Positions 941 to 977 of a stretch of DNA of 5,162 nucleotides are shown here, in pieces. The notes under the pieces were generated by a model. It made no database searches and was not told the origin of the DNA. It was given only the letters and a program-made list of their open reading frames with translations. The DNA is taken from the IMG/VR virus record IMGVR_UViG_2740892369_000030. One strand, written 5' to 3'. Numbering within the stretch: position 1 is the first letter of the stretch; every line of letters starts with the position of its first letter. The translations under genes were made by a program, and so were the position numbers. The DNA is from a virus. Taxonomy: Duplodnaviria > Heunggongvirae > Uroviricota > Caudoviricetes.

Positions 941-977
941 CCAAAATACCAAAAATACCTTGATTTGGTATTTTTGG
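941..977. promoter_or_regulatory. Candidate operator: perfect 11-bp palindrome CCAAAAATACC-N7-GGTATTTTTGG (949..977) plus an upstream direct near-copy CCAAAATACC (941..950)
   Basis: Arms 949..959 and 967..977 are exact reverse complements with a 7-bp spacer TTGATTT. Located in the divergent c-ner intergenic region where Mu carries its O1-O3 operators. Confidence 0.5.

What the first reader, a model, noticed from the sequence alone, without database searches (positions are those of the whole stretch)
941..977. Perfect 29-bp palindromic element in the c-ner divergent region, likely the lysogeny operator
CCAAAAATACC-TTGATTT-GGTATTTTTGG is an exact 11-bp inverted repeat with a 7-bp spacer, preceded by a direct near-copy CCAAAATACC (941..950). 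The candidate -35 for the rightward early promoter (TTGATT, 961..966) sits in the spacer, so a dimer bound here would block early transcription. The half-site shares the core (A/G)ATACC with the ATTTGATACC 10-mer, which may link operator and end/spacer sites to one DNA-binding specificity; that link is weaker inference.
Basis: partly seen in the sequence, partly recalled or inferred. Interest (0 to 1): 0.5.

Follow-up and report, generated by a model that had tools for sequence, protein, structure and literature searches.

The report
Repressor operator of a Mu-like prophage
The palindrome is real and is most likely the DNA site where this Mu-like E. coli prophage's own repressor sits on the early promoter to keep the virus dormant; that is an ordinary kind of switch, though here a second matching site lies inside the repressor gene itself.

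Summary
A perfect inverted repeat lies at 948-959/967-978: 12-nt arms, 7-nt spacer, one base longer per arm than reported. It is rare by chance (1/300 window shuffles, 2/5000 intergenic shuffles). The window is the left end of a Mu-like prophage common in Shiga-toxin E. coli: c repressor (-), then ner, A and B (+).

In about 20 relatives an inverted repeat brackets a conserved -35 (window TTGATT 960-965), 17 nt before a -10 (CATTAT 983-988).

Two natural immunity swaps decide which protein owns the site. Tongde/L022 and L016/L023 keep Ner (81/82, 83/83) and the transposase N-terminus (149/150, 143/150) nearly identical. They exchange the c DNA-binding domain together with the half-site type. 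So the site belongs to c, an XRE-type helix-turn-helix protein, not to Ner or the transposase.

Most relatives examined (12 of 15 by a strict test) also carry copies of their own half-site inside the linker-coding part of c (window 588-637), about 350 bp away. This suggests an auxiliary operator.

All evidence is computational; binding is untested. This is a new, uncharacterised member of a well-known kind of element.

The parts
948..959 (+). Left inner arm of the operator palindrome, ACCAAAAATACC (core unit AAAAATACC).
   Evidence: (I19). The same unit is conserved in L015, Tongde, L016, L026 and L032.
960..966 (+). 7-nt spacer TTGATTT. It holds the -35-like hexamer of the early promoter Pe (TTGATT, 960-965).
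   Evidence: Alignment A4: a TTGAnn or TTTACn hexamer sits at this position in all relatives. Homologous promoters were called by the scan in L022 (TTGACA-17-TATTCT) and L024 (TTGACT-17-TATGAT).
967..978 (+). Right inner arm, GGTATTTTTGGT. It lies in the -35/-10 spacer of Pe.
976..981 (+). Outer unit GGTGAT (reverse complement ATCACC), which extends the right arm to a 15-nt half-site ATCACCAAAAATACC.
   Evidence: 15-nt arms are symmetric in L016 (ATCACGAAAAATACC / GGTATTTTTCGTGAT) and L027 (ATCAACCAAAATACC / GGTACTTTGGTTGAT).
941..950 (+). Direct near-copy CCAAAATACC, an 8-9-bp-phased extra unit to the left of the palindrome. It lies next to the region where a leftward c promoter would have its -35.
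   Evidence: D1. A perfect copy occurs in variant L013. Equivalent upstream direct copies occur in Tongde, L015 and L026.
983..988 (+). -10-like hexamer CATTAT of Pe, 17 nt after the -35.
   Evidence: Alignment A4: TATTCT, TATGCT, TATGAT, TAATAT or AATACT at the same column in relatives, with A2 and T6 kept. The window itself scores 8/12 and was not called by the scan.
588..637 (+). Candidate auxiliary operator inside the c gene, in the part that codes for the inter-domain linker. It reads ATCACC (589-594), CCAAAATTACC (602-612), CCACAAATACC (611-621), GGTGAT (632-637).
   Evidence: These are the only other matches to the half-site with one mismatch or fewer in the window. By the strict test, 12 of 15 relatives carry their own unit type in the same linker; L015, L026 and L027 show only variant units, and the four later loci were compared by eye. 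Own-arm versus linker matches total 22, reached by 1 of 20000 permutations. The array's orientation is inverted in the window relative to Tongde, although the linker peptides differ.
859..880 (+). Possible third, weaker dyad at the c ribosome-binding site: AAAGATACC-TCTT-GGTGCTTTT.
   Evidence: In L026 and L027 the homologous place reads AAAAGTACC-TCCA-GGTATTTTT, which are exactly their two operator arm variants. In relatives with a longer c N-terminus this DNA is coding (KEP/KAP codons), so the signal is ambiguous.
328..858 (-). c repressor gene (176 aa), the inferred binding protein. It has an XRE-type helix-turn-helix N-terminal domain (recognition helix residues 33-40, INTLNSYF), a disordered linker around residues 80-90, and a helical C-terminal domain.
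   Evidence: PHROG 3037 at E 1e-62. AlphaFold2 model with pLDDT about 90 over residues 8-70. Foldseek matches to the DNA-binding domains of P22 c2, 434 repressor/Cro, SinR and 186 CI, with TM (target-normalised) 0.65-0.75.
910..915 (-). Candidate -10 (TTCAAT on the - strand) of the leftward c promoter. This is inference only.
   Evidence: The block AATTGAA is conserved in most relatives (10 of the 11 valid rows of A4; Tongde lacks it), upstream of the c Shine-Dalgarno sequence (alignment A4). There is no consensus -35, and no scan hit.

Best explanation
The palindrome is the primary operator of the prophage's own c (immunity) repressor.

The c protein has an XRE/Cro-CI-type helix-turn-helix domain. 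A c dimer is inferred to bind the two inverted 9-bp units (AAAAATACC) on either side of the -35 hexamer of the early promoter Pe. The right arm fills the -35/-10 spacer. Bound c would therefore exclude RNA polymerase and shut off ner-A-B transcription, which keeps the prophage lysogenic.

Extra units may be bound cooperatively, possibly through a DNA loop: the direct copy at 941-950, the outer GGTGAT at 976-981, and a second dyad-like array about 350 bp away inside the c linker-coding DNA (588-637).

Shown here: the repeat, its rarity, its conservation around a conserved promoter, and its co-variation with the c DNA-binding domain but not with Ner or the transposase. Inferred: actual binding, stoichiometry, looping and promoter start sites.
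For: 1. The repeat is perfect and rare by chance.

2. In about 20 relatives, with c identity down to about 43%, an inverted repeat brackets a -35-like hexamer 17 nt upstream of a -10-like hexamer, although the arm sequences differ. The promoter scan calls that promoter in L022 and L024.

3. There is a compensatory change on both arms in L016 and L033: CCAAAAATACC becomes CGAAAAATAC(C/G), mirrored on the other arm.

4. Two natural immunity swaps assign the site to c.
   - Tongde versus L022: about 97-100% DNA identity in the left end, the c C-terminal part, the GC-rich element, ner and A. Identity is only 33-68% across the c N-terminal domain, linker and operator.
   - In that pair Ner is 81/82 identical and the A N-terminus 149/150, yet the half-site switches from AAAAATACC to AAAAGAAC.
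   - L016 versus L023 shows the same pattern: Ner 83/83, A N-terminus 143/150.

5. By the strict test, 12 of 15 relatives repeat their own unit type inside the c linker-coding DNA. Examples: the two arm variants of L017, AAAGAACCC and AAAGATTCC, recur in tandem there, and L028 has 4-5 tandem AAAAGA(A/G)C units. Own versus shuffled pairing gives 22 hits, reached by 1 of 20000 permutations.

6. Unit type tracks the recognition helix. Ser38 goes with (T/C)ACC units in 9 phages. Asn38 or Gly38 goes with (G/C)AAC units in 10 phages.

7. c is predicted to be a helix-turn-helix repressor.
Against: - There is no experimental binding, footprint or transcription-start data for this phage family in the papers I could search.
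- The window's own Pe scores only 8/12 against the sigma-70 consensus and was not called by the scan.
- Co-variation among related phages is not phylogenetically independent. Only two clean recombinant pairs separate c from Ner and A.
- Class B phages (VW-6B, L029) have hybrid arms, CACC on the left and GAACC on the right, so the Ser/Asn rule is not clean.
- L015, L026 and L027 show only weak or variant units in the linker.
- The invariant A-tract part of every unit could serve DNA bending or act as a promoter UP element (an AT-rich upstream activating sequence) rather than being contacted by c.
- The centre-to-centre distance of the full 11-nt arms is 18 bp. Only the inner TACC/GGTA cores are one helical turn apart, so the geometry of binding is unknown.
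Confidence: 0.8

Rival explanations
1. The palindrome is the Ner (Cro-like) operator. Ner dimers would bind it to turn down Pe and the c promoter during lytic growth.
For: Ner proteins of Mu and D108 bind dyad sites in the c-ner intergenic region (established knowledge; the D108 Ner-operator study is cited in PMC10434027). Ner is encoded immediately downstream.
Against: In the two swap pairs Ner is 81/82 and 83/83 identical while the arms change class. A separate, much better conserved GC-rich three-unit element (986-1027) lies between Pe and ner and is a better Ner candidate.
Confidence: 0.04
2. The palindrome is the transposition enhancer (the Mu 'IAS'), bound by the N-terminal Ialpha domain of the transposase. 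This could be instead of c binding or in addition to it, as in Mu, where operator and enhancer coincide.
For: The position matches. The element lies 871-901 nt from the phage left end at window 78, which I recall to be close to where Mu's operator/enhancer lies. That Mu's operator and enhancer coincide is established knowledge (O/E in PMC3820752). The transposase here keeps a Mu Ialpha-type domain (PF02316, E 1.9e-6).
Against: c has no PF02316 domain and a different fold (XRE helix-turn-helix). The Mu logic of a shared domain and a shared site therefore does not apply. The A N-terminus is 149/150 and 143/150 identical across swaps that replace the arms, so A cannot be reading the class-specific bases.
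Confidence: 0.06
3. It acts as an RNA hairpin or intrinsic terminator. The scan flags a terminator-like site on the minus strand.
For: The scan lists 978..948 (-) as terminator-like. The RNA hairpin would be -14.9 to -16.7 kcal/mol, z about -4. Compensatory changes on both arms would also fit a hairpin.
Against: - Only 4 of 12 stem pairs are G-C, and the tail is AUUUUGG.
- The element lies upstream of the predicted Pe start and upstream of the candidate c promoter, so no predicted transcript contains it (inference).
- The arms are imperfectly complementary in several relatives (VW-6B about 8/12, L017 10/12), yet each arm still matches units repeated in that phage's linker.
- Direct-repeat copies and the intragenic array are not explained by a hairpin.
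- There is no Rfam match.
Confidence: 0.03
4. It is a protein-independent architectural element: phased A/T tracts that bend DNA or act as an UP element for Pe. On this reading the symmetry is incidental.
For: A-tracts at 932-936, 943-946 and 951-955, and a T-tract at 971-975. The left arm lies roughly -35 to -60 from the predicted start, where UP elements act (established knowledge). The A4-5 run is the invariant part of the unit in all classes.
Against: This does not explain class-specific 3' bases that co-vary with the c recognition helix and recur in the c linker. It also does not explain exact dyad symmetry that is rare by chance.
Confidence: 0.05

Closest known systems
Lambdoid OR-type operators (lambda, 434, P22): dyad sites for a Cro/CI-type helix-turn-helix repressor that overlap the lytic promoter
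   Same: A dyad site brackets or overlaps the -35/-10 of the early promoter in a divergent repressor/early-gene region. The predicted repressor domain has the same fold as the P22 c2 and 434 repressor domains. Heteroimmune relatives exchange the DNA-binding domain together with the operator as one cassette. An adjacent extra unit lies next to where the repressor promoter's -35 would be.
   Different: The host element is a transposable Mu-like phage. The unit is a 9-bp A-tract plus YACC, repeated at about 9-bp phase in both direct and inverted orientation, not three spaced 17-bp dyads. The C-terminal domain is small and helical, with no sign of a LexA/S24 peptidase-like cleavage domain among the Pfam hits or in the all-helical model.
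Bacteriophage Mu operator/enhancer (O1-O3 / IAS)
   Same: Same map position and same genetic context, between c and ner; by my recollection of Mu, both lie about 0.9 kb from the left end. Same presumed job, repression of Pe. Both use multiple repeated units spread over several hundred bp.
   Different: In Mu the repressor and the transposase share a homologous N-terminal domain and compete for the same DNA (Pfam PF02316 description; O/E in PMC3820752). Here c lacks that domain and the operator changes without any change in the transposase. Operator and enhancer therefore appear uncoupled.
Coliphage 186 CI with distal flanking operators FL and FR
   Same: Distal repressor sites lie about 300 bp from the main promoter operators; in 186 these assist repression through looping or wrapping (PMC3675496). 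Here an auxiliary array lies about 350 bp from the Pe operator. 23 of 45 c homologues give weak hits to the 186-CI-type helix-turn-helix family PF07022.
   Different: The window's own c does not reach any PF07022 threshold. Only the N-terminal domain aligns to 186 CI (2fjr, 78 columns). There is no evidence for a 14-mer wheel. Promoter geometry appears divergent, not face-to-face.
Auxiliary operators inside coding regions (lac O2 in lacZ, gal OI in galE)
   Same: A second operator embedded in an ORF a few hundred bp from the promoter operator (established knowledge).
   Different: Here the auxiliary site would lie inside the repressor's own gene, in a codon-flexible linker. It co-evolves with the recognition helix encoded about 150 bp away.

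Membership tests
Phage immunity-repressor operator overlapping the lytic promoter (lambda/434/P22 type) | Dyad-symmetric DNA site more symmetric than chance allows | tested here: met
   12-nt perfect arms. Arms of at least 12 nt occurred in 1/300 window shuffles and 2/5000 intergenic shuffles.
Phage immunity-repressor operator overlapping the lytic promoter (lambda/434/P22 type) | The site overlaps core elements of the early (lytic) promoter | tested here: inconclusive
   A conserved -35/-10 pair with 17-nt spacing is bracketed by the repeat in all relatives. The scan calls it in L022 and L024 at 10/12. The window's own promoter scores 8/12 and was not called. No transcription-start data exist.
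Phage immunity-repressor operator overlapping the lytic promoter (lambda/434/P22 type) | Operator sequence co-varies with the repressor's DNA-binding domain in heteroimmune relatives | tested here: met
   Swap pairs Tongde/L022 and L016/L023. Unit classes track the recognition-helix residue.
Phage immunity-repressor operator overlapping the lytic promoter (lambda/434/P22 type) | Physical binding by the cognate repressor and repression of the promoter | not testable with these tools
   Needs gel-shift (EMSA), footprinting or reporter assays.
Mu-type operator/transposition enhancer | Lies between c and ner, about 0.9 kb from the left end | tested here: met
   The phage end is at window 78. The palindrome lies 871-901 nt from it.
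Mu-type operator/transposition enhancer | The repressor's DNA-binding domain is homologous to transposase domain Ialpha (PF02316), so both read the same site | tested here: not met
   A matches PF02316 (E 1.9e-6). c does not, and has an XRE-type fold.
Mu-type operator/transposition enhancer | The site co-varies with the transposase N-terminal domain | tested here: not met
   The A N-terminus is 149/150 and 143/150 identical while the arms change class.
Ner (Cro-like) operator | The site co-varies with Ner | tested here: not met
   Ner is 81/82 and 83/83 identical across the swaps.
Rho-independent terminator | G+C-rich stem followed by a U-run, inside a transcript, and conserved as a structure | tested here: not met
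   4 of 12 stem pairs are G-C, with tail AUUUUGG. The arms are imperfectly complementary in relatives. The element lies outside the predicted transcripts. There is no Rfam hit.
186 CI-type switch with distal flanking operators | Repressor helix-turn-helix belongs to PF07022 | tested here: inconclusive
   The window's c gives no hit. 23 of 45 homologues give weak hits, best E 1.3e-5.
186 CI-type switch with distal flanking operators | Distal cognate sites about 300 bp from the promoter operator | tested here: met
   Units at 602-621 lie about 350 bp from the palindrome. They co-vary across the family. This is sequence-level evidence only.
186 CI-type switch with distal flanking operators | The C-terminal domain forms a heptamer-of-dimers wheel | not tested
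   The fold search aligned only the N-terminal domain to 2fjr. No multimer modelling was done.

The most novel reading that the evidence does not exclude
The palindrome may be one node of a multi-site repressor-DNA assembly. On this reading the repressor gene carries its own auxiliary operator in the codon-flexible linker between its two domains (window 588-637), and possibly a third dyad at its ribosome-binding site (859-880).

Two consequences would follow. First, the recognition helix and both operators would travel and co-evolve as one immunity cassette of about 480 bp. Second, unlike Mu, the operator would be uncoupled from the transposase-binding enhancer, so repression of transposition would work through transcription alone.
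Probability: 0.4. Interest if true: 0.55.

Novelty: new member of a known kind. Interest (0 to 1): 0.4.

Why it matters
This Mu-like prophage occurs in many Shiga-toxin-producing E. coli: 116 of 5426 complete genomes carry at least 80% of window 1-1400. It inserts at many different places, including inside Stx phages.

Knowing its operator, promoter and repressor specificity gives three things:
- a handle on what keeps the prophage silent;
- a sequence rule for predicting immunity groups among relatives: Ser38 goes with TACC units, Asn38 or Gly38 with GAAC units;
- a compact set of orthogonal repressor/operator pairs.

It also shows that a Mu-like phage can run the c/ner switch with a lambda-style helix-turn-helix repressor whose sites are not read by the transposase. 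This bears on how general Mu's operator-equals-enhancer design is.

None of this overturns current understanding. It is a well-supported annotation of an uncharacterised switch.

Tried and rejected
- The genome-contig scan with the single c protein returned only three partial hits in Aquificaceae MAG contigs.
- A profile search of PDB sequences with the c alignment gave nothing significant; the best hit had E 0.046 over 27 residues.
- Foldseek E-values for the whole model are weak (best 1e-2). Only the N-terminal domain match is informative, and the C-terminal domain has no convincing match.
- The promoter scan of the window did not call Pe, so I relied on relatives.
- Rfam found no family in the window.
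- The row labelled L014 in alignment A4 used wrong coordinates and should be ignored.
- Matches to AAAAGAACC near the c start in most phages turned out to be codons of a conserved K-E-P motif. I did not count them as operators.
- I considered an IHF site in the spacer: AATCAAGGTATTT on the minus strand is one mismatch from WATCAANNNNTTR. The spacer is not conserved in relatives, so I dropped it.
- Papers on SfMu, the Yersinia Mu-like phages and O157 Sp18 contain no operator data for this repressor family.

Full report
**What the window is**

The ORFs and domain matches give c (328-858, minus strand), ner (1049-1297), a Mu A-like transposase (1299-3389) and a Mu B-like ATPase (3460-4392).
- ner matches Pfam HTH_35.
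- The transposase matches HTH_Tnp_Mu_1 and Mu-transpos_C.
- The ATPase matches Phage-MuB_C.
- c matches PHROG 3037 'transcriptional repressor' at E 1e-62.

BLAST against complete E. coli genomes finds window 1-1400 at 99.7-100% identity in the listed genomes. 116 genomes cover at least 80% of the query. The alignments start between 71 and 78 and sit next to different flanking genes in different genomes. Two Stx-phage records annotate the region as an 'inserted Bacteriophage Mu-like phage'. The prophage left end is therefore at about window 78 (TGTAACC...), and bases 1-77 are flank. The palindrome lies 871-901 nt from that end, in the divergent c-ner region.

**The observation**

The perfect arms are 12 nt long, 948-959 and 967-978, with a 7-nt spacer. 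A perfect repeat this long with a spacer of 12 nt or less appeared in 1 of 300 dinucleotide shuffles of the window. It appeared in 2 of 5000 shuffles of the AT-rich intergenic region. The near-copy at 941-950 is real.

**A conserved promoter inside the repeat**

I collected about 20 distinct relatives:
- two sequenced phages, Yersinia phage Tongde and Pseudomonas phage VW-6B;
- IMG/VR contigs;
- contigs that encode c homologues.

In each of them an inverted repeat brackets a TTGAnn or TTTACn hexamer. That hexamer lies 17 nt upstream of a -10-like hexamer with A2 and T6 kept. The window has TTGATT-17-CATTAT, which scores 8/12 and was not called by the scan. L022 has TTGACA-17-TATTCT and L024 has TTGACT-17-TATGAT; each is the single promoter-like site the scan finds there, and each points toward ner. 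The right arm thus fills the promoter spacer and the left arm abuts the -35. A protein bound to both arms would occlude the promoter. This step is inference.

**Which protein owns the site**

The arms fall into classes:
- AAAAATACC-like: window, L015, Tongde, L016, L026, L027, L032, L033, L035.
- AAAAGAACC, AAAAACACC or AAAGATTCC: VW-6B, L029, L017.
- AAAAGAAC or AAAGGAAC: L019, L022-L025, L028, L034.

Two natural recombinant pairs separate the candidate proteins.

Tongde and L022 are about 97-100% identical through the left end, the C-terminal part of c, the GC-rich element, ner and A. They are only 33-68% identical across the c N-terminal domain, the linker, the palindrome and the Pe hexamers. 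Ner is 81/82 identical and the first 150 residues of A are 149/150 identical. Even so, the half-site changes from AAAAATACC to AAAAGAAC.

L016 and L023 repeat the pattern: Ner 83/83, A 143/150.

The class-specific bases therefore travel with the c DNA-binding domain, not with Ner or the transposase. L016 and L033 also carry the same change on both arms (CC to CG at the outer end), as expected for a symmetric dimer site.

**The repressor**

The AlphaFold2 model has a confident five-helix N-terminal domain (pLDDT about 90 over residues 8-70), a disordered linker around residues 80-90 and a helical C-terminal domain. Foldseek aligns the N-terminal domain with the DNA-binding domains of P22 c2, 434 repressor/Cro, SinR and 186 CI. 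Target-normalised TM is 0.65-0.75 over 62-70 residues. About half of the homologues give weak hits to Pfam PF07022, and none matches the Mu domain PF02316.

The predicted recognition helix is residues 33-40 (INTLNSYF). Ser at position 38 goes with (T/C)ACC units in nine phages. Asn or Gly at position 38 goes with (G/C)AAC units in ten phages. The rule is suggestive only: the phages are related to one another, and class B has hybrid arms.

**A second site inside the c gene**

In the window, matches to the half-site with one mismatch or fewer occur only at 949-959, 967-977, 602-612 and 611-621. The last two lie in the DNA that encodes the c linker, and they are flanked by ATCACC (589-594) and GGTGAT (632-637).

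In most relatives (12 of 15 by the strict test) the same part of the gene holds copies of that phage's own unit type:
- The two arm variants of L017, AAAGAACCC and AAAGATTCC, recur in tandem there.
- L028 has four to five tandem AAAAGA(A/G)C units.
- L033 has ATCACAAAAAACACC, against its operator arm ATCACGAAAAACACC.

The linker peptides differ greatly (ICGNFGCSGD in the window, SPENTKNTKHGD in Tongde). The array is also inverted in the window relative to Tongde. Both points argue for selection on the DNA rather than on the protein.

Pairing each phage's arms with its own linker gives 22 hits, a total reached by 1 of 20000 random pairings. The mean is 0.12 hits when arms and linker come from different classes, against 1.47 for a phage's own pair. 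L015, L026 and L027 are weak by this strict test.

I read this as a candidate auxiliary operator about 350 bp from the main one. The known precedent is the FL and FR sites of phage 186 CI, about 300 bp from pR (PMC3675496). Whether it loops, acts as a roadblock or does nothing is untested.

A possible third dyad sits at the c ribosome-binding site (859-880). It is clearest in L026 and L027, where it reads AAAAGTACC-TCCA-GGTATTTTT. In other relatives that DNA is coding, so the signal is ambiguous.

The 10-mers at 94-103 and 189-198, and the variant at 242-251, lie 17, 112 and 165 nt from the phage end. That is where Mu transposase end sites L1-L3 would be (the placement is from established knowledge of Mu). 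Phages with AAAAGAAC operators keep TTTGATAC(C/T) ends (L019, L022, L023, L025). L026 and L027 have ...TACC operators but TTCAAGATAAC ends. The two motifs are independent, so the shared ATACC is a coincidence.

**Rival readings**

- Ner operator and transposase enhancer: both are excluded as readers of the class-specific bases by the two swap pairs.
- Terminator or RNA hairpin: the energy would allow it. Against it, the stem is G+C-poor, the element lies outside the predicted transcripts, and it is imperfect in relatives. A hairpin also cannot explain the direct copies or the intragenic array. Rfam finds nothing.
- Purely architectural A-tract element: this may contribute, because the A-run is the invariant part of the unit. 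It does not explain the specificity.

**Comparison with known systems**

In function and layout this resembles a lambdoid OR-type operator placed in a Mu-like genome. It occupies the map position of Mu's operator/enhancer but fails that system's defining feature, which is that repressor and transposase share a domain and read the same DNA. I found no paper that characterises this repressor family's operator.

**Verdict**

The finding is real and its main interpretation is well supported computationally, at confidence about 0.8. It is a new, uncharacterised member of a familiar kind of element. The intragenic co-varying array is the more interesting extension. Interest 0.4.

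Noticed in passing
window 986-1033: A GC-rich element lies between the predicted Pe start and ner. It has three 12-bp-phased units (AGATATCC / GAATATCC / GGGTAACT), flanked by TTACCCGTGC...GCGCGGGTAA and followed by CTTTTT.

It is highly conserved in all relatives (GGATAACCGCGCGGTTATCCGCACGGATAAC type) and is unchanged across the immunity swaps. It could be the Ner operator, a transposase-binding enhancer, or a leader attenuator. RNAalifold gives a 14-pair hairpin with 3 covarying pairs, and the scan calls the homologous L024 sequence terminator-like.
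   Followed up: partly
window 94-103, 189-198, 242-251: Three direct copies of (A/T)TTTGATAC(C/T) lie 17, 112 and 165 nt from the prophage left end (window 78). This is the arrangement expected for transposase end-binding sites L1-L3. They are conserved in most relatives; the L017/L026/L027 group has TTCAAGATAAC instead.
   Followed up: partly
window 3421-3447: The A-B spacer holds an exact 12-nt reverse-complement copy of the L1 core: GGTATCAAATGA, against TCATTTGATACC at 92-103. It forms a local dyad, ATTTGATTA-N7-TATCAAAT, just upstream of the B ribosome-binding site. It is not present in the short A-B spacers of Tongde or VW-6B, and its function is unknown.
   Followed up: partly
window 1-77: These bases are not part of the Mu-like phage. 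They match Stx-phage and IS66-like (ISCro1) neighbourhoods. In other genomes the prophage end abuts many different genes, which indicates repeated transpositional insertion, including into Stx prophages.
   Followed up: partly
window 133-165: A perfect 9-nt inverted repeat, ATCACCTGT-N15-ACAGGTGAT, lies between the first two end repeats. It contains ATCACC/GGTGAT, the same hexamer as the outer operator unit. It is present in the close variants L010 and L014 but not evident in L015 or Tongde. There is also a 36-nt, 78% inverted match to 4435-4470 (I1).
   Followed up: no
window 859-933: The reading frame upstream of the c ATG (858) stays open to a TTG at 933. Its translation (…RKKPFLRKAPRGIF) resembles the N-terminal extensions of c in relatives (MTKEP…, MRKAPQGSF…), but it has no good start codon. 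The window's c seems to have lost this extension, which turned former coding DNA into 5' UTR.
   Followed up: partly
window 4389-4883: Two small early genes lie downstream of B. ORF 4389-4616 matches PHROG 3375 (unknown function). ORF 4617-4883 matches PHROG 2679, 'Kil protein for bacterial septation inhibition'.
   Followed up: no
L003-L005 (Aquificaceae / Aquifex MAG contigs): Short contigs assigned to thermophile MAGs encode a 54-63-residue stretch that is 37-52% identical to the c helix-turn-helix region. This may be contamination, mis-binning or a distant relative.
   Followed up: no
L001 vs L022 and L016 vs L023: The exchanged immunity cassette has sharp borders. One falls inside c, about 115-130 codons from its start, after the linker. 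The other falls just after the Pe -10. The cassette is about 480-540 bp and excludes the GC-rich element and ner.
   Followed up: yes
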